Positions 3,636-60,123 of a stretch of DNA of 64,000 nt are shown here, piece after piece. Origin of the DNA: Vampirovibrionaceae bacterium NZW_1234 (lineage in GTDB: Bacteria > Cyanobacteriota > Vampirovibrionia > Vampirovibrionales > JAGQHJ01); NCBI GenBank assembly GCA_041697335.1, contig JBGUGD010000004.1, positions 64,001 to 128,000 of the forward strand. Reading direction: 5' to 3'. Positions within the stretch are counted from its first letter, which is position 1. Every line of letters starts with the position of its first letter. The notes beneath the pieces are model-generated. The model saw nothing but the letters and a program-made list of their open reading frames with translations. It had not been told where the DNA came from and did not search any database. The position numbers were made by a program, and so were the translations under genes.

Positions 3636-3786
3636 AAGAAAAATCTCATGAGTCTTGTGCGTTCTCTGTCCCTGCTGGTATGTTAGCGAACAAACCCGTT
3701 ATGGGTTATTGCCTACTCAGGTAGTGGTATCAAGGCCCTGGCGAGCGCATTGTGAACGGGTTTTTCCGTGAAAGGCTCGGGGGCTG

Positions 3787-3817
3787 TTGCATCGGAATTT
3801 TATTGGTGGTATAAAAT
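3787..3817 (+). promoter_or_regulatory. putative sigma70 promoter of rpsT
   Basis: TTGCAT-N17-TATAAA(AT). Confidence 0.5.
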
Positions 3818-3874
3818 GTTATCCATAATTTACGATGCAGTCGAATGCATGACCAGTTAAAAGGAGTGTCCCCG

Positions 3875-4141
3875 GTGCCCAATATCAAGTCCGCCAAAAA
3901 ACGTGTTGACGTTGCTGAGCGTAATCGTCTTCGGAATCAAGCTTACAAGTCGGCCATTCGGACGTCCATTAAGCGTGTTCTGGAGTCTGTGCAAGACAAG
4001 GCAGACGCTGCGCAGATTCAAGAGCGTTTGGCCAAGGCCTACAGCTTGATTGATCGGGCCATTTTGAAAGGTATTCTCCACAAAAATACCGGTGCCCGCT
4101 ACAAAGCTCGCGTGGCTAAAGCGGCTAACAAAGCAGCCTAG
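3875..4141 (+). CDS. rpsT: 30S ribosomal protein S20
   Basis: PNIKSAKKR...RNRLRNQAYKS...KGILHKNTGARYK; AAGGAG RBS before GTG 3875. Confidence 0.97.
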   Translation: MPNIKSAKKRVDVAERNRLRNQAYKSAIRTSIKRVLESVQDKADAAQIQERLAKAYSLIDRAILKGILHKNTGARYKARVAKAANKAA

Positions 4142-4162
4142 TTGGTTTTTTAAGTTGTTTTC

Positions 4163-4203
4163 AAAGCACCCTGGTCGTTTCGGTCTGGGTGCTTTTGAGT
4201 TTT
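4163..4203 (+). terminator. intrinsic terminator after rpsT
   Basis: AAAGCACCC...GGGTGCTTT stem followed by T-rich tail. Confidence 0.75.
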
Positions 4204-4247
4204 GAACCTCAAAATTAGGCAGCCCAAAGAGACTCAGAAAATTTGAC

Positions 4248-4333
4248 AAAAAAAACTCTCTGAATCTTCGAAAATACGAGAATGCAGAGAGTCGATAGGA
4301 ATTGAGAGTTAGGAGAAGAAAGTGATGTTTTGT
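4248..4333 (-). ncRNA. candidate trans-acting sRNA with anti-Shine-Dalgarno seed
   Basis: C/U-rich 5' part (CUUCUCCUAACUCUCAAUUCCUA), then an ACUCUCUG/CAGAGAGU stem and U-tail; promoter-like motif at 4339-4368; 5' end estimated. Confidence 0.65.
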
Positions 4334-4338
4334 ATATA

Positions 4339-4368
4339 TATAAAAACGATTTTTTTAGGGCCTGTGCC
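4339..4368 (-). promoter_or_regulatory. recurrent promoter-like motif, copy 1
   Basis: GGCA-N16-CGTTTTTATA. Confidence 0.55.
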
Positions 4369-4530
4369 GAAGTTTAAATAAATGTAACAGTCCGAATACT
4401 GGAATTAAGGATTCCTTAAGGATTTACGCCGAGGGAGGCATGCAAGAGGCTAAACTTTCCAAGCCTTTGGCCGATAAGGGTAGAGAGCCCCAGAGCCAGT
4501 TCAATAGAATAAATCGTGTAGGGAACCAGG

Positions 4531-5106
4531 GTGTTGAAACCAGTCAAGGCCAAGCAATCGGGATTTACGTATTTTGAGGCCATTATTGCCTTAATTTTCA
4601 TTGGTATTGTGGCCATGTTGACTTTGCCTGGCATGATTTTCACCTCATCTAATAGCACTGCGCTTTATCGCACCAAGAACATGGCTGCTCAAATCCAGGA
4701 GGTCTCTATGGGGGGACGTTTTGGCTGGTCCATTATGGAAAAGCTCAAGTATGTGAATAAAATTTCTTCTGGCAATGTCAATATCAGCCTCAAGCCCTGT
4801 ACCGGGCAACAGGCGAGTACCTGTTGTACCACCATGAATCCCTGTTATCGTTTCTCGGACGGGGGGATTTTGCGCTATGATGGCTACAGTAACTCTGCCG
4901 GGGGGCCTGGTGGGATAGTATATGTCAATACAATGTCCTATTCTTACGATCCCGATGGGGCTGGTGTCATCAAGCCGGCAGAGTTGGTGTATCTTCACGC
5001 TACAGGCCGAATTGTATCTCGAGAAGTCTATTGGAAAGATGTCATCGGATCGACCAATGCAGGGTATAAAGATCCAGCCTATTTGAAGCCTTGGACCAAA
5101 TACTAG
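4531..5106 (+). CDS. type IV pilin / pseudopilin-like protein
   Basis: Class III signal KQSG|FTYFE followed by a hydrophobic helix; YDPDG and DPAY C-terminal motifs. Confidence 0.8.
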   Translation: MLKPVKAKQSGFTYFEAIIALIFIGIVAMLTLPGMIFTSSNSTALYRTKNMAAQIQEVSMGGRFGWSIMEKLKYVNKISSGNVNISLKPCTGQQASTCCTTMNPCYRFSDGGILRYDGYSNSAGGPGGIVYVNTMSYSYDPDGAGVIKPAELVYLHATGRIVSREVYWKDVIGSTNAGYKDPAYLKPWTKY

Positions 5107-5351
5107 GCACTTTACCTCTTTTGGATTCTGCTCTGAAACCAGATACGGTGCTAAATTTTTCATGCAACTCGGTGAAACATGCCATGTCGGGCTTTGTAGT
5201 GAGCTTGTATCCAGGCTAAAAGCCTGAAAATAAGACTTTACAAGCGGTCATGGTTTCAATATGATTCTTAACCAAATATAATCAACGAGAGGGGGCAACC
5301 CGGTTCGGGGGTTATATGGGTTGTGTAATTTACTGAGAAGGAGGCAGGTAT

Positions 5352-19463: not shown

Positions 19464-20948
19464 TTAGCCTTCGTCATCCGTTTGCGGAGGCTCGGCTTGA
19501 GTTTGAGCTTCGCTTTGAGGAGCTGCATCGGCTGCTGTGCCACCATTGGTTGCGCCGCCTTGACCACCCGTCACGTTGAGCGCATATAAACCGAGGTTTT
19601 CGACTTTGCCGGTCTCTTTGTTACGCTTTTCGAAGGTGGTGTCGGCTTGACTCAACAGATCGTTGCCACGACCATCAAAGTTGCGCCGTAAGCTTTTAGC
19701 ATCATCACCCACGGTCATCTTGATGATACCGGCTTGGGATAAGCTCATAGCTGTTGAGTTAAAGCCACTGGTCTTGATTTTTAGACCGTAGTCTTTCTCG
19801 AGTTTGGCCAGATCTTTTTCATCCAAGACATCATCTTTGTCCGAGATGAGATTTTCTTTCTTTGCGATGGCTTTAAGGGCATCATAGCCATCTTTAATAT
19901 TGGCATTGGTAATGCCGAACTTTGACAGGTCCGTGTTGACCCCCAGGGTTTCTGTGAGGTTTTCACCGGAGATACCGTCTTTATCAGCATCAATGACCAG
20001 TAGACCTTGACCATTGGCAATATCGTTTAAGGTCACTCGGTTCTGGTTGTTGCGATCGGTGGCAACTTGAACCGACTTATCGCTGGTAAGTTTGCCATCT
20101 TTTTTCAAATCCAGGACCAAGGGCGTGCCACTGGGCTCTTTTGGCTTGGGTGGCGGGGTTGGGCCAGGTTTTGGACCGGGCTTAGGACCGGGTTTCGGTT
20201 TTTCCTCTTCCTCATCCTCCATCAAGGTAATGAGGAGGGCGATTAGAGCAAAGAGGAATTGCGGATTTTGTTGCTGCGGCTGCGGCTTCGGTTGCGGTTG
20301 AGGTTGTGGAAGCGGCATTGGCATTGGCGCCGGAGTGGGTACCGGAACAATGATGGGTTGAATAATGGGTTGCTGGGGTTCAGGGGTGGGTAAGCCTACA
20401 GGGAAGCCACCTCCTGGGAACCCTCCAGGCGACCATCCACCTGGAAATCCTCCGCCCGGGAACCCTCCAGGTGACCATCCACCTGGGAATCCTCCACCTG
20501 GGAATCCTCCACCCGGGAATCCGCTACCAGGGAAGCCTCCTGGGAATCCTCCGCCTGGAAAACCACCGCCGGGAAAACCACCGGGCATACCACCGCCGGG
20601 AAATCCACCAGGCATACCGCCACCTGGAAATCCTCCGCCGGGGAAGCCGCCACCCGGGAACTGACCACCGGGAGCACCTCCGCCAGGGAACTGACCGCCA
20701 GGAACTTGGCCACCCGGTTGTTGACCACCAGGTTGTGGGCCGGGCATAGGCTGGGGTTGTTGAGGAGCTGAGAAAGGCTGATTAAAGCCACCAAACGTAG
20801 AATCCACACCGAGTTGGGGGCCACCAATCATTACCGAATAATTGAGATTCTGCTGGTTATTACCATCGTAATTAACCATATTCTGGCTAAACGTTTGGTT
20901 AAACGAATAGCTATTATTGCTCGTAAGCTGGTTATTACTATTAAACAT
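19464..20948 (-). CDS. Asn/Gly/Pro-rich protein with a C-terminal FrpC self-processing-module-like domain
   Basis: N/Q-rich N-terminus, GGFPG repeats, one hydrophobic helix, then TPLVLDLKKDG...GLLVIDADKDG...DGYDALK. Confidence 0.8.
   Translation of the reverse strand: MFNSNNQLTSNNSYSFNQTFSQNMVNYDGNNQQNLNYSVMIGGPQLGVDSTFGGFNQPFSAPQQPQPMPGPQPGGQQPGGQVPGGQFPGGGAPGGQFPGGGFPGGGFPGGGMPGGFPGGGMPGGFPGGGFPGGGFPGGFPGSGFPGGGFPGGGFPGGWSPGGFPGGGFPGGWSPGGFPGGGFPVGLPTPEPQQPIIQPIIVPVPTPAPMPMPLPQPQPQPKPQPQQQNPQFLFALIALLITLMEDEEEEKPKPGPKPGPKPGPTPPPKPKEPSGTPLVLDLKKDGKLTSDKSVQVATDRNNQNRVTLNDIANGQGLLVIDADKDGISGENLTETLGVNTDLSKFGITNANIKDGYDALKAIAKKENLISDKDDVLDEKDLAKLEKDYGLKIKTSGFNSTAMSLSQAGIIKMTVGDDAKSLRRNFDGRGNDLLSQADTTFEKRNKETGKVENLGLYALNVTGGQGGATNGGTAADAAPQSEAQTQAEPPQTDDEG
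20400..20735 (-). repeat. coding tandem repeats of GG(G)xP-type units
   Basis: About 23 Gly-rich Pro-terminated 4-5-residue units (mostly GGFPG). Confidence 0.9.
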
Positions 20949-21012
20949 GAGGCGAAACTCCTAACTCATCAAATCACAGAGAGAAAAATACACTCAATGT
21001 CTTACCTATGTG

Positions 21013-21042
21013 TATAAAAACAATTAATAAAATGTTTATGAT
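21013..21042 (-). promoter_or_regulatory. recurrent promoter-like motif, copy 2
   Basis: ATCA-N16-TGTTTTTATA upstream of the 20948 gene. Confidence 0.55.
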
Positions 21043-21124
21043 ATATTGCAAACAATTGTAAATATTTTATTAATATTGGGTGCTTTCCTAAGCTACTACG
21101 GCTTTTCGGGATTTGAAGTCGGAC

Positions 21125-21227: not shown

Positions 21228-21551
21228 TTAACAAGCCAGAGGTGATTTGGAGGCCCCTTCTTTTTTATTCATTAAAAGGGTCATCAGCACCATCATCAAC
21301 ATTATCATAAGGTTATTGTTGCTGTTTTTGGGCGCATCGGTTTTTGGGGCTTTAGGGGTTTCAGGCAATGATGGAGGAGATATCACAATCCCTGGGAGCG
21401 TCACAATGGGAGGGAGAAGACGCGGGTTCGATTCGGCCAGGGGGTTACGAAACCCTTCGACACCATTATTACCAATGATCAAGTTGCTGTTTACCACCGG
21501 CAGTCCGGCAGCCATAATATTGCGAGGTGTAAGATTTGCAAGCGAAAACAT
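21228..21551 (-). CDS. small Pro-rich protein with a C-terminal Met/Leu hydrophobic helix
   Basis: TTAGGAG RBS before ATG 21551 (MFSLAN...); NNNNLMIMLMMVLMTLLMNKK. Confidence 0.7.
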   Translation of the reverse strand: MFSLANLTPRNIMAAGLPVVNSNLIIGNNGVEGFRNPLAESNPRLLPPIVTLPGIVISPPSLPETPKAPKTDAPKNSNNNLMIMLMMVLMTLLMNKKEGASKSPLAC

Positions 21552-21618
21552 ACACAGAACTCCTAACACATCAAACTGAGCACGAGAAGAACAAAGCGAT
21601 ATAATATTGTCTTGTAAA

Positions 21619-21669
21619 TATAAAAAAACAATAAAAAAGGTTTTTGATGCATTGTTACATCATGTAACA
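21619..21669 (-). promoter_or_regulatory. recurrent promoter-like motif, copy 3, with upstream palindrome
   Basis: ATCA-N16-TTTTTTTATA (21619-21648); TGTTACAT-C-ATGTAACA at 21653-21669. Confidence 0.55.
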
Positions 21670-22125: not shown

Positions 22126-22257
22126 GACACATTTTGTTGTCTAGGGAAGTCGGTAAATGAGACAAAGCTCCTGACGTTTGGGGTGTTGGGAATTTGATTC
22201 GACCATGTGAGAATCTGGGAAAGAAGGTTATGGAAAACGAGGGAGGTGAAAACAAAG

Positions 22258-59475: not shown

Positions 59476-59650
59476 CCGGGATTCATCTCCTGATTGTGTG
59501 ACACGACATCTGTAAAGCTGATTGTAGCGCAATTGTCTTAGACTGAAAATCACAACAGAAAGATGAGAGGCCAACTTCAGGCCGTCTTTTCTGAGGCATT
59601 GCCCATCAAGAGGCGTTTACCACAAATATTAATAAAATCTTAGGATCACT

Positions 59651-59680
59651 AGCACAAAACCTTAAGAAATTGTTTTTATA
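59651..59680 (+). promoter_or_regulatory. recurrent promoter-like motif, copy 5
   Basis: AGCA-N16-TGTTTTTATA. Confidence 0.55.
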
Positions 59681-59787
59681 TAAATAAGTTAAATTCTCTC
59701 TTCTTCAGTTTAGTTTGTTATCTCTTTTTTTAAATATCTCTCTTTTAGGTACTTCTTGTTAGGAATATTGAGTTAGGAGTTGCTTCG

Positions 59788-60123
59788 ATGAGTTTCGCTG
59801 CATCGGTTGCACGCGATTTGCTGCTGACGGCACGCAATGCGGATCTGGAATTTCAAATCAATTTGCTGAGTGAAAATCTTCAGCAGTTAACGGCAGTCGC
59901 CGCCAGTTTATTTTCACTGGCTGCAAACATCCAGCCGGGAAGTCCGGAATCGCAATTATTGTCGGTTCGCCAAGCACAGTTAGCCCAGGTCGAAAAAGGG
60001 ATTGAAATCCAGTTGGACAAAGTTCGGTCGCAACAAAAAGCGGTTGCGGCAGAGATTGAAGCCGTTCGTAAGACCATTACGGATGACATCAATCGCTCCT
60101 TCAAAACCTTTGCCAACGCATAG
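59788..60123 (+). CDS. small helical-hairpin / coiled-coil protein
   Basis: GAGTTAGGAG RBS; two amphipathic helices around a PGSP turn. Confidence 0.8.
   Translation: MSFAASVARDLLLTARNADLEFQINLLSENLQQLTAVAASLFSLAANIQPGSPESQLLSVRQAQLAQVEKGIEIQLDKVRSQQKAVAAEIEAVRKTITDDINRSFKTFANA

What the first reader, a model, noticed from the sequence alone, without database searches (positions are those of the whole stretch)
4248..4333. Unannotated sRNA antisense to a ribosome-binding motif shared by three distant genes
Seen: the minus strand reads promoter motif, then a single-stranded C/U tract CUUCUCCUAACUCUCAAUUCCUA, then an 8-bp stem (4285-4292/4255-4262) and U-tail. The tract is complementary to the 5'UTR of the 59788 gene: TAGGAAT-att-GAGTTAGGAG (59760-59779) versus TAGGAAT-tga-GAGTTAGGAG (4296-4315), 17 of 20 positions. 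It also matches the 20948 gene (GAGTTAGGAG 10/10 at 20958-20967, extending over TTGA with a bulge) and the 21551 gene (GTGTTAGGAG 9/10 at 21560-21569). All three targets and the sRNA carry the same upstream promoter-like motif. Established: seed-plus-terminator sRNAs repress translation by occluding the SD. Inference: an undescribed alternative-sigma regulon with an sRNA arm (feed-forward loop) controlling lineage-specific, possibly exported proteins. The pairing extends well beyond the generic AGGAG.
Basis: partly seen in the sequence, partly recalled or inferred. Interest (0 to 1): 0.9.

Follow-up and report, generated by a model that had tools for sequence, protein, structure and literature searches.

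The report
Regulon-linked anti-ribosome-site small RNA
A short, conserved, probably non-coding RNA gene in an uncultured predatory relative of cyanobacteria carries the exact complement of a ribosome-binding "tag" shared by many orphan genes that use the same unusual promoter, so it probably holds back their translation.

Summary
On the minus strand of window 4248-4371 lie a promoter of a genome-wide class, a 39-nt G-free unpaired tract and a hairpin with a U8 tail.

- **Conservation:** the unit occurs in 4 of 5 genomes of this Vampirovibrionales family, each a different genus. A 29-nt tract is identical in all four. The hairpin sequence differs but still pairs.
- **Promoter class:** about 171 sites match in this genome, against 7 in a reversed-genome control. 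Its core is over-represented in all 49 genomes of the order.
- **Target motif:** the most enriched words in the leaders behind these promoters (GAGTTAG to TTAGGAG, 50-58x) are the exact antisense of the RNA's seed. GTTAGGAG-type ribosome sites occur at 13 of 38 regulon sites against 10 of 849 others.
- **Shuffle control:** the seed pairs better with regulon start regions than 100 shuffled seeds on the stronger measures.
- **Clade pattern:** the promoter-then-tag arrangement is nearly confined to the genomes that carry the RNA.

My best reading (0.6) is an Hfq-independent base-pairing sRNA that occludes the ribosome site of a tagged subset of its own regulon.

No transcript evidence could be obtained. 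It matches no Rfam family, and four literature searches found nothing on it. I class it as a new member of a known kind.

The parts
4248..4332 (-). Predicted sRNA transcript, about 80-85 nt. The 5' end is inferred from the promoter and the 3' end from the U8 tail.
   Evidence: Covariance model R1 matches 68250-68332(-) of contig C7, which is window 4250-4332, at 89.6 bits. No RNA data exist.
4332..4371 (-). Regulon-class promoter. The core TCGTTTTTATA lies at 4349 to 4339, followed by TATATAC. The upstream box is GGCACAGG.
   Evidence: PWM score 28.9; the reversed-genome control has 7 hits at 22 or above and 1 at 28 or above. Conserved in G003 and G004, but not in G001.
4294..4322 (-). Invariant 29-nt G-free seed, 5'-CUUUCUUCUCCUAACUCUCAAUUCCUAUC-3'. 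Its core CUCCUAACUCUC is the antisense of the regulon leader tag.
   Evidence: Identical in 4 of 4 homologues. Unpaired in all four folds. Its k-mers are enriched 57-155x in regulon leaders.
4248..4293 (-). Intrinsic terminator: stem 4285-4293 paired with 4254-4262, an inner stem, and a U8 tail at 4248-4255.
   Evidence: 9 consensus pairs, 2 of them with changes on both sides. Hairpin sequences and loop lengths differ among the four genomes, but all end in a U run.
4371..4420 (.). Conserved upstream control region shared with the divergent pilin-like gene. It holds GTTACATTTATTTAAACT (4388 to 4371 on the minus strand) and the direct repeat CTTAAG-N5-CTTAAT (4420 to 4404).
   Evidence: Alignment A2. 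The likeness to OmpR/PhoB-type or RpaB-type sites is recalled, not tested.
4325..4381 (+). 18-codon plus-strand ORF after AGGAG (rival reading).
   Evidence: It is 18 codons long in G000, G003 and G004. Its C-terminal halves differ, and it is absent in G001.
59648..60123 (+). Target 1: promoter (core 59670-59680), leader site 59760-59779, CDS 59788-60123 (111 aa, orphan multi-copy family).
   Evidence: (duplex -25.1 kcal/mol over both half-sites).
19464..21045 (-). Target 2: promoter (core 21023 to 21013), tag 20958-20967, CDS 19464-20948 (494 aa, no family).
21228..21653 (-). Target 3: promoter variant TTGTTTTTTTATA (PWM 29.5), tag GTGTTAGGAG at 21560-21569, CDS 21228-21551 (107 aa).

Best explanation
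Window 4248-4332(-) encodes a trans-acting, base-pairing small RNA of about 80-85 nt (65-72 nt in relatives). It is transcribed from a promoter of the same class that drives about 170 mostly orphan genes.

Its 5' 39 nt carry no G and are unstructured. The invariant 29-nt seed pairs with the leader tag (A)GAGUUAGGAG, which contains the Shine-Dalgarno sequence. In many targets it also pairs with a second half-site, GGAAUUGA or UAGGAAU, just upstream.

Pairing across the ribosome site should block 30S binding and lower translation of the tagged subset of the regulon. Because RNA and targets share a promoter class, the circuit would be an incoherent feed-forward or threshold device that delays or ranks expression within the programme.

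**Shown:** sequence anatomy, conservation, complementarity, and enrichment.
**Inferred:** transcription, strand, repression, and circuit logic.
For: **Conservation**
- A 29-nt tract is identical in four genera, while flanks and hairpin diverge. The hairpin is kept by pairing.
- All four fold as an open 5' tract plus hairpin plus U run, z -3.3 to -4.3. The plus strand gives z -1.0.
- The model finds it at 82-91 bits only in these four genomes of the 49 in the order.

**Promoter**
- PWM score 28.9.
- The class has 80 exact cores against 5 for the reversed pattern.
- There are 171 non-redundant PWM sites, mostly 20-80 nt upstream of ORF starts.

**Target motif**
- Of the 12 genomic GAGTTAGGAG sites outside the sRNA locus, 9 show the promoter core TTGTTTTTAT within the 120 nt printed upstream. 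A tenth has it 316 nt upstream.
- GTTAGGAG or longer occurs at 13 of 38 regulon AGGAG sites against 10 of 849 others, Fisher p 1.5e-13.
- 14 of the genome's 50 GTTAGGAG copies lie in 13.9 kb of regulon leaders.
- The four most widespread enriched 7-mers of 165 leaders are all antisense to the seed.

**Pairing**
- 24 of 113 regulon start regions pair at -18 kcal/mol or better. For 100 shuffled seeds the mean is 8.6 and the maximum 21.
- The top-10 mean is -24.2 against -22.3 for the best shuffle.
- Duplexes cover the SD and use both halves of the seed.
- The three window leaders are no more structured than shuffles.

**Clade pattern**
- Promoter-N28-58-GTTAGGAG counts are 7, 8 and 3 in G000, G003 and G004.
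- Only 4 of 44 genomes of the two other families have it, once each. Controls are 0.
Against: - **No expression data.** No RNA run was listed, so strand and ends rest on sequence signals only.
- **Weaker pairing measures.** 40 start regions pair at -15 or better against a shuffle mean of 29, and 13 of 100 shuffles reach 40. With the full 40-nt tract many unrelated purine-rich start sites also score well, and only about 9 of the top 30 are regulon genes. My gene calls are crude ORF calls.
- **Unexplained tag sequence.** The conserved TTTCG that follows the tag in many mRNAs is not complementary to the RNA. The tag is therefore also under another constraint.
- **G001 exception.** It keeps the seed but lacks the regulon-type promoter and has none of the promoter-tag arrangements.
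- **Partial target conservation.** In orthologues of the 111-aa gene, G003 keeps TAGGAA and TTAGGAGA. G004 does not keep the tag.
- **One clade.** The clade pattern amounts to a single evolutionary event.
- **Possible other reader.** CsrA is encoded and could be the real reader of the GGA-containing tag.
Confidence: 0.6

Rival explanations
1. The RNA is real, but its main partner is a protein. One version has a C/U-rich RNA titrating an RNA-binding protein. Another has it competing with CsrA for the GGA-containing tag on the mRNAs, so that it relieves rather than causes repression.
For: - fliW-csrA is present and no Hfq was found.
- The tag and its upstream half-site each contain GGA.
- Several other C/U-rich terminated RNAs use the same promoter, and C/U tracts also occur inside regulon leaders.
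- TTTCG after the tag is conserved without being complementary to the RNA.
Against: - The flagellin leaders, the expected CsrA targets, carry GGA repeats but neither the tag nor the promoter.
- An exact 11-12 nt antisense match to the most enriched leader word is not needed for protein titration.
- The transcribed strand has no G in its first 39 nt, so it cannot itself be a GGA sponge.
Confidence: 0.12
2. The conserved element works on the plus strand. It would be a regulon-type leader with a strong ribosome site driving an 18-codon micro-ORF, or a GGA-type decoy. The minus-strand signals would be incidental.
For: - The plus strand reads TAGGAAT-N3-GAGTTAGGAG-N7-GTGATG, the same layout as the 59788 leader.
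- An 18-codon ORF is open in G000, G003 and G004.
- TTGACA lies at 4244-4249.
Against: - No plus-strand promoter is called, and the TTGACA is not conserved in G003.
- The plus-strand PWM score is 10.3.
- The ORF is absent in G001, where the seed is intact. The peptide's C-terminal half is not conserved.
- The equal ORF length follows from the indel-free spacing between promoter and upstream box.
- The U run follows the hairpin only on the minus strand.
- The plus-strand fold is no better than shuffles, z -1.0.
Confidence: 0.08
3. The invariant tract is a DNA operator for a regulator of the programme, and it is also present in the leaders as a DNA site. No RNA pairing would be involved.
For: - The tag sometimes lies directly after the promoter, at positions 18-23 in 5 leaders. 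That is a typical operator position.
- The tract lies about 10-40 bp downstream of the sRNA promoter.
Against: - In most genes the tag keeps a fixed distance to the start codon (5-11 nt) and a variable distance to the promoter (37-111 nt). That points to an RNA or translation role.
- It is in the opposite orientation at the sRNA locus.
- The conserved terminator is unexplained by this reading.
Confidence: 0.05
4. There is no functional RNA. The locus would be a decayed remnant of a regulon gene's leader, lying head-on to a stray promoter-like AT-rich sequence.
For: - The plus strand resembles a regulon leader (17 of 20 to the 59788 leader).
- The AT-rich promoter core is partly palindromic, and one site (C23 140249/140266) scores on both strands.
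- There is no expression evidence.
Against: - 29 of 29 nt are identical across four genera whose S20 proteins are only 70-82% identical to the window's.
- The terminator is maintained structurally.
- Synteny with the divergent pilin-like gene is kept in G003.
Confidence: 0.07

Closest known systems
RybB and MicA, the sigma-E-dependent sRNAs of enterobacteria (recalled, not fetched)
   Same: An RNA of about 80 nt that consists of a conserved single-stranded 5' seed and a Rho-independent terminator. It is transcribed from a regulon-type (alternative) promoter and acts on many mRNAs by pairing.
   Different: - Those RNAs need Hfq. No Hfq gene was found here in a 94.75%-complete genome.
- Their targets (porin mRNAs) are not driven by the same promoter.
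- There is no sequence or Rfam similarity.
- Here the seed covers the Shine-Dalgarno sequence itself.
RsaE/RoxS and LhrC1-5, the C/U-rich anti-Shine-Dalgarno sRNAs of Firmicutes (recalled)
   Same: G-poor, C/U-rich unpaired motifs pair with ribosome-binding sites and work largely without Hfq. Sibling copies exist. Here a second C/U-rich family from the same promoter is multi-copy.
   Different: - Their C-rich motifs sit in hairpin loops and are short (UCCC or CCCC). Here one linear 29-nt 5' tract is used in two halves.
- No Rfam match at E up to 10.
- The regulators differ.
Sigma-28-dependent flagellar sRNAs (MotR and FliX in E. coli; CJnc230 in Campylobacter) and the Spot 42-CRP feed-forward loop (recalled)
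   Same: An sRNA made by the same transcription signal as the genes it then regulates, giving feed-forward timing inside one programme.
   Different: - Those RNAs are mostly UTR-derived and Hfq-dependent.
- Their targets do not share a long common leader tag.
- The regulon here is not flagellar. The flagellin genes lack both the promoter and the tag.
CsrB/RsmZ-type protein sponges
   Same: A small RNA linked to ribosome-site recognition. CsrA is encoded in this genome.
   Different: The defining repeated GGA loops are absent from the transcribed strand, which has no G in its first 39 nt.

Membership tests
Any Rfam 15 family | Match to a curated covariance model | tested here: not met
   At gathering threshold the window holds only a tRNA. 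With E up to 10 over 4150-4450, only chance-level hits of at most 18.7 bits appear, against cut-offs of 33-70.
Trans-acting base-pairing sRNA (seed plus terminator type) | Own promoter, no ORF, intrinsic terminator | tested here: met
   Promoter PWM score 28.9. Hairpin plus U run in 4 of 4 homologues. The only minus-strand ORF starts after the terminator and is antisense to rpsT.
Trans-acting base-pairing sRNA (seed plus terminator type) | Conserved, unstructured seed complementary to several mRNAs | tested here: met
   29 nt invariant and unpaired. Complementarity is enriched in regulon leaders and beats shuffled seeds on the stronger measures.
Trans-acting base-pairing sRNA (seed plus terminator type) | Detected transcript and a regulatory effect on targets | not testable with these tools
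   No RNA holder was listed.
Hfq-dependent sRNAs | Hfq encoded by the host | tested here: not met
   PF17209 has no match in the 94.75%-complete genome. The control search rang in 5 known genomes.
CsrB/RsmZ-type CsrA sponge | Several GGA motifs on the transcribed strand | tested here: not met
   No G in the first 39 nt of the minus-strand RNA in all four homologues. The plus strand has two GGA motifs but no promoter or terminator support.
Cis-antisense RNA | Overlaps a gene on the opposite strand | tested here: inconclusive
   The only overlap is an 18-codon plus-strand ORF, which is absent in G001 and poorly conserved.
Sigma-70 housekeeping promoter | TTGACA-N16-18-TATAAT geometry | tested here: not met
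   The consensus scan calls nothing at 4332-4371(-). The PWM shows a near-continuous block with no conserved hexamer 17 nt downstream of TTGTTT.
Alternative-sigma (ECF-type) regulon | Sigma gene autoregulated from its own promoter class | tested here: not met
   None of the 8 Sigma70_r2 genes has a class promoter upstream on its strand within 60 kb. This does not exclude a non-autoregulated sigma factor.

The most novel reading that the evidence does not exclude
An order-wide Vampirovibrionales programme of about 170 promoters, driving mostly orphan Asn/Gly/Pro/Ser-rich proteins, could be the predation or effector programme. In this one family it would have acquired an RNA layer with three parts.

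1. A leader and ribosome-site 'address tag', (A)GAGUUAGGAG plus GGAAUUGA, marks a subset of the messages.
2. An sRNA with an invariant 29-nt G-free seed, made from the same promoter class, reads that tag. This would gate or rank translation without Hfq, possibly in competition with CsrA.
3. Sibling C/U-rich sRNAs and purine-rich or tag-bearing short RNAs from the same promoter would act as further regulators or sponges.
Probability: 0.2. Interest if true: 0.8.

Novelty: new member of a known kind. Interest (0 to 1): 0.6.

Why it matters
I found no sRNA or promoter description for Vampirovibrio or Melainabacteria in four full-text searches. These are the non-photosynthetic, partly predatory sister lineage of cyanobacteria.

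This locus gives a concrete, testable entry point. It offers a conserved riboregulator, a defined seed, a defined target tag, and a list of about 20 candidate targets. All of these sit inside a very large, sharply defined promoter class that covers about 5% of the genes, most of them orphans.

If the pairing is real, it shows how a lineage can bolt a post-transcriptional timing layer onto an older transcriptional programme by spreading one leader tag. It would also supply a handle (promoter, tag and sRNA) for working out what the orphan programme does.

Tried and rejected
- **RNA evidence.** The sequencing-run search over 3700-5200 listed 14 runs, none on record as RNA: 'no RNA holder listed'. 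I did not use read laying because DNA contigs cannot show a transcript.
- **Metagenome scan.** None has the sRNA context. They belong to two unrelated repeat families plus singletons, so they add no homologues, and true ones may have been cut off.
- **Rfam.** Nothing found.
- **Consensus scans.** The sigma-70 and terminator scan calls neither the promoter nor the hairpin.
- **Window-level count.** The 10-mer count is not significant on its own.
- **Weak model hits.** Hits outside the family are other C/U-rich terminated sequences, not this RNA.
- **Target paralogy.** blastp at E 1e-3 finds no similarity among 16 tagged proteins, so recent duplication does not explain the shared tag.
- **Target protein function.** 18 of 23 regulon proteins have no Pfam family. 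0 of 12 have an NCBIfam family. The 111-aa protein has no PDB relative below E 0.1.
- **G-free runs.** 145 runs of 39 nt or more exist genome-wide, so this property alone is weak.
- **Best single target-like site.** C21 15131-15152, 19 of 20 by my reading, is not conserved in relatives.
- **Timing.** timed out. I reran it with 100 shuffles instead of 200.
- **Promoter assignment.** I considered sigma-54, sigma-28, ECF and PhoB-box or RpaB-box readings from memory. None fits well enough to assert.

Full report
**Setting.** The window is contig C7:64001-128000 of a 3.70-Mb, 41-contig genome with 50.4% G+C. Relatives of its ribosomal protein S20 carry titles such as Vampirovibrionales, Vampirovibrio and Melainabacteria. 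The host is therefore an uncultured member of the non-photosynthetic sister group of cyanobacteria.

The finding lies in the 390-bp gap between two plus-strand genes. The first is rpsT (3845-4141), which has its own hairpin and T run at about 4158-4200. The second is an ORF (4531-5106) whose N-terminus looks like a prepilin by my reading; Pfam gave no hit for it.

**Observation.**
- The minus strand reads TCGTTTTTATATATATAC (4349 to 4332), then a tract without a single G, then ACTCTCTG paired with CAGAGAGT, then U8.
- RNAfold leaves the first 39 nt open and folds the rest into a 9-bp stem with an inner stem: -17.1 kcal/mol, z -4.0, with 0 of 200 shuffles as good. The plus strand gives z -1.0.
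- The three quoted complementarities are exact as stated.
- Within the window alone the 10-mer count is not remarkable: 5 found against 2.4 expected, and 9 of 100 shuffles reach 5.

**The promoter class is real and large.**
- TTGTTTTTATA occurs 80 times in the genome, against 5 for the reversed word.
- The sites share an upstream TAnCAnAAA box, a cTTAAGA box and a downstream tatATA, giving about 37 bp of near-continuous conservation.
- A PWM finds 171 non-redundant sites at 22 bits or more. A reversed-genome control gives 7. The PWM was trained on this genome, so the exact-word control is the independent one.
- ORF starts lie mostly 20-80 nt downstream.
- The sRNA promoter scores 28.9. The three 'target' promoters score 40.3, 38.0 and 29.5.
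- The core word is over-represented in all 49 genomes of the order, typically 10-35 copies against 0-8 for the control.
- I could not assign the reader of this motif. It fits no consensus I recall. None of the 8 sigma-70-family genes sits behind it. The sRNA's upstream region carries a conserved CTTAAG-N5-CTTAAT direct repeat and a GTTACATT-N2-TTTAAACT repeat that resemble OmpR/PhoB-type sites; the alignment is and the resemblance is recalled.

**The RNA gene is conserved as an RNA gene.**
- A DNA search finds it in 3 of the 4 other genomes of the family, each a different genus.
- The fourth genome is 56% complete. It gave only a weak 22.6-bit match to a different C/U-rich RNA.
- In the alignment, 29 consecutive nucleotides (window 4294-4322) are identical in all four. 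The hairpin differs in sequence and loop length yet pairs in each, with 2 of 9 consensus pairs changed on both sides. Every copy ends in a U run.
- G003 and G004 keep the class promoter. G001 does not.
- A covariance model scores 82-91 bits on these four genomes. It scores at most 32 bits elsewhere in the order, on other C/U-rich terminated sequences.
- The divergent pilin-like neighbour is kept in G003.
- It matches no Rfam family.

**The seed is antisense to a regulon-specific leader tag.**
- GAGTTAGGAG occurs 13 times in the genome. Of the 12 copies outside the sRNA locus, 11 lie 5-10 nt before an ATG or GTG, by my reading. 9 of the 12 show the promoter core TTGTTTTTAT within the 120 nt printed upstream, and a tenth has it 316 nt upstream.
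- Among 887 AGGAG ribosome sites of ORFs of at least 100 codons, the extension GTTAGGAG or longer occurs at 13 of 38 sites behind a class promoter and at 10 of 849 others. The odds ratio is 44 and p is 1.5e-13. Two of the 10 'others' are class genes missed by my distance or score cut-off.
- In 13.9 kb of leaders, the 8-mers from GAGAGTTA to GTTAGGAG are enriched 57-155-fold.
- In an unbiased count, the four most widespread enriched 7-mers are all contained in antisense in the seed: TTAGGAG in 17 leaders, GTTAGGA in 14, GAGTTAG in 12 and AGTTAGG in 11.
- The tagged proteins are not detectable paralogues, so the tag is not simply inherited by duplication.

**Pairing.**
- On 113 class start regions, the 29-nt seed gives 24 duplexes at -18 kcal/mol or better. 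For 100 shuffled seeds the mean is 8.6 and the maximum 21.
- The top-10 mean is -24.2 kcal/mol against -22.3 for the best shuffle.
- The looser count at -15 kcal/mol is not exceptional: 40 against a mean of 29, and 13 of 100 shuffles reach 40.
- The best sites are bipartite. GGAATTGA or TAGGAAT pairs with the 3' half of the seed, and (GA)GTTAGGAG(AAG) pairs with the 5' half. This explains why the whole 29 nt is frozen.
- With the full 40-nt tract, class start regions pair better than 3232 other crude start calls. The medians are -15.5 and -12.9 kcal/mol, p 3e-9. Many unrelated purine-rich sites also score well.
- The three window leaders are not structured, with z +0.3 to +1.2.

**Clade pattern.** The arrangement promoter-N28-58-GTTAGGAG occurs 7, 8, 3 and 1 times in G000, G003, G004 and G002, and 0 times in G001. 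It occurs once each in 4 of the 44 genomes of the two other families. Controls are 0 everywhere. In G003 and G004, 4 of 9 and 5 of 9 AGTTAGGAG sites are ribosome sites behind the promoter. So the promoter is old, and tag and RNA go together in one family. This counts as a single evolutionary event.

**Mechanism.** The most economical reading is a chaperone-independent anti-Shine-Dalgarno sRNA that represses a tagged subset of the programme from which it is itself transcribed. No Hfq gene was found.

The main complication is that fliW-csrA is present and the tag contains GGA. However, the flagellin leaders carry a different, GGA-repeat design and have no class promoter.

The plus-strand rival is weak. 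It proposes a leader plus an 18-codon ORF, found in three genomes but absent in G001, with a non-conserved C-terminal half.

**What the regulon encodes.**
- 18 of 23 sampled proteins have no Pfam family. The rest are two C39-like peptidases, a DUF4214 protein, a pentapeptide-repeat protein and one weak sub-threshold hit.
- 72 of 107 proteins are singletons.
- They are rich in N, G, P and S, and poor in H, C and W.
- Only 10 of 107 have an N-terminal hydrophobic run. Classical export is therefore not supported.

**Literature.** Four full-text searches found nothing on sRNAs or promoter motifs in this group. In the listings I saw only titles and abstract starts.

**Earlier scan note.** e1-1427278 describes sibling G-poor promoter-terminator sRNA genes in another Vampirovibrionales genome, with an OmpR/RpaB-type regulator suggested. 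I see a comparable multi-copy family here, but I did not test whether it is the same family.

**Verdict.** This is a real, conserved and uncatalogued sRNA gene whose seed matches a regulon-specific ribosome-site tag. Transcription and repression remain to be shown.

Noticed in passing
Genome-wide. In the window: promoter cores at 59670-59680(+), 21013-21023(-), about 21619-21631(-) and 4339-4349(-), plus a weaker site near 22128(-).: A promoter class of about 37 bp (TAnCAnAAA, cTTAAGA, TTGTTTTTATA, tatATA) has about 171 sites in this genome. Its core is over-represented in all 49 genomes of the order. It drives mostly orphan proteins that are N/G/P/S-rich and H/C/W-poor. The factor that reads it is unknown.
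   Followed up: partly
G000 C37:112813(-) and C37:114584(-) (locus L254): Twin C/U-rich RNAs of about 85 nt, each with a terminator, lie behind class promoters 1.8 kb apart. The family is multi-copy in relatives: 2 in G003, at least 8 in G004 and 1 in G001. It may be the sibling family noted earlier in another Vampirovibrionales genome.
   Followed up: partly
G000 C26:143565(+) (locus L255): A third C/U-rich terminated RNA (CUUUCUCCUCUCUUCUC...) lies behind a class promoter. It is conserved at 79% over 147 nt in G003.
   Followed up: partly
G000 C20:6043(-) (L257) and C38:18032(+) (L256): Two terminated short transcripts behind class promoters carry sense copies of what the C/U-rich RNAs would bind. 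C20 starts with GAGAGUUAGGAAAC. C38 holds GAGAAGAAAAGAGAGAA. They could be targets or sponges. C20 is conserved in G004 (86%) and G001 (78%).
   Followed up: partly
G000 C21:15131-15152(+) (L276 832-853): This is the longest single match to the seed complement in the genome: GGAATTGTGAGTTAGGAGAA, 19 of 20 by my reading. It lies in a 700-bp gene-poor stretch before an 81-codon ORF that ends at a terminator. It was not found in the four relatives.
   Followed up: partly
window 4371-4420: Conserved direct repeats lie upstream of the sRNA promoter, between it and the divergent pilin-like gene: CTTAAG-N5-CTTAAT and GTTACATT-N2-TTTAAACT. They look like response-regulator sites, a resemblance I recall rather than tested.
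   Followed up: no
G000 C5:229831-230580(-) (L183 1414-2163): A fliW-csrA operon lies next to a class-promoter gene for a C39-like peptidase. Three tandem flagellin genes on C26 have GGA-repeat leaders.
   Followed up: partly
window 59788-60123: The 111-aa helical orphan protein belongs to a family with 3-6 copies in each related genome at 31-66% identity. Several copies in relatives are read through one TAA.
   Followed up: no
G000 C23:140249(+)/140266(-): A perfectly palindromic core, TTGTTTTTATAAAAACAA, scores as a promoter on both strands.
   Followed up: no
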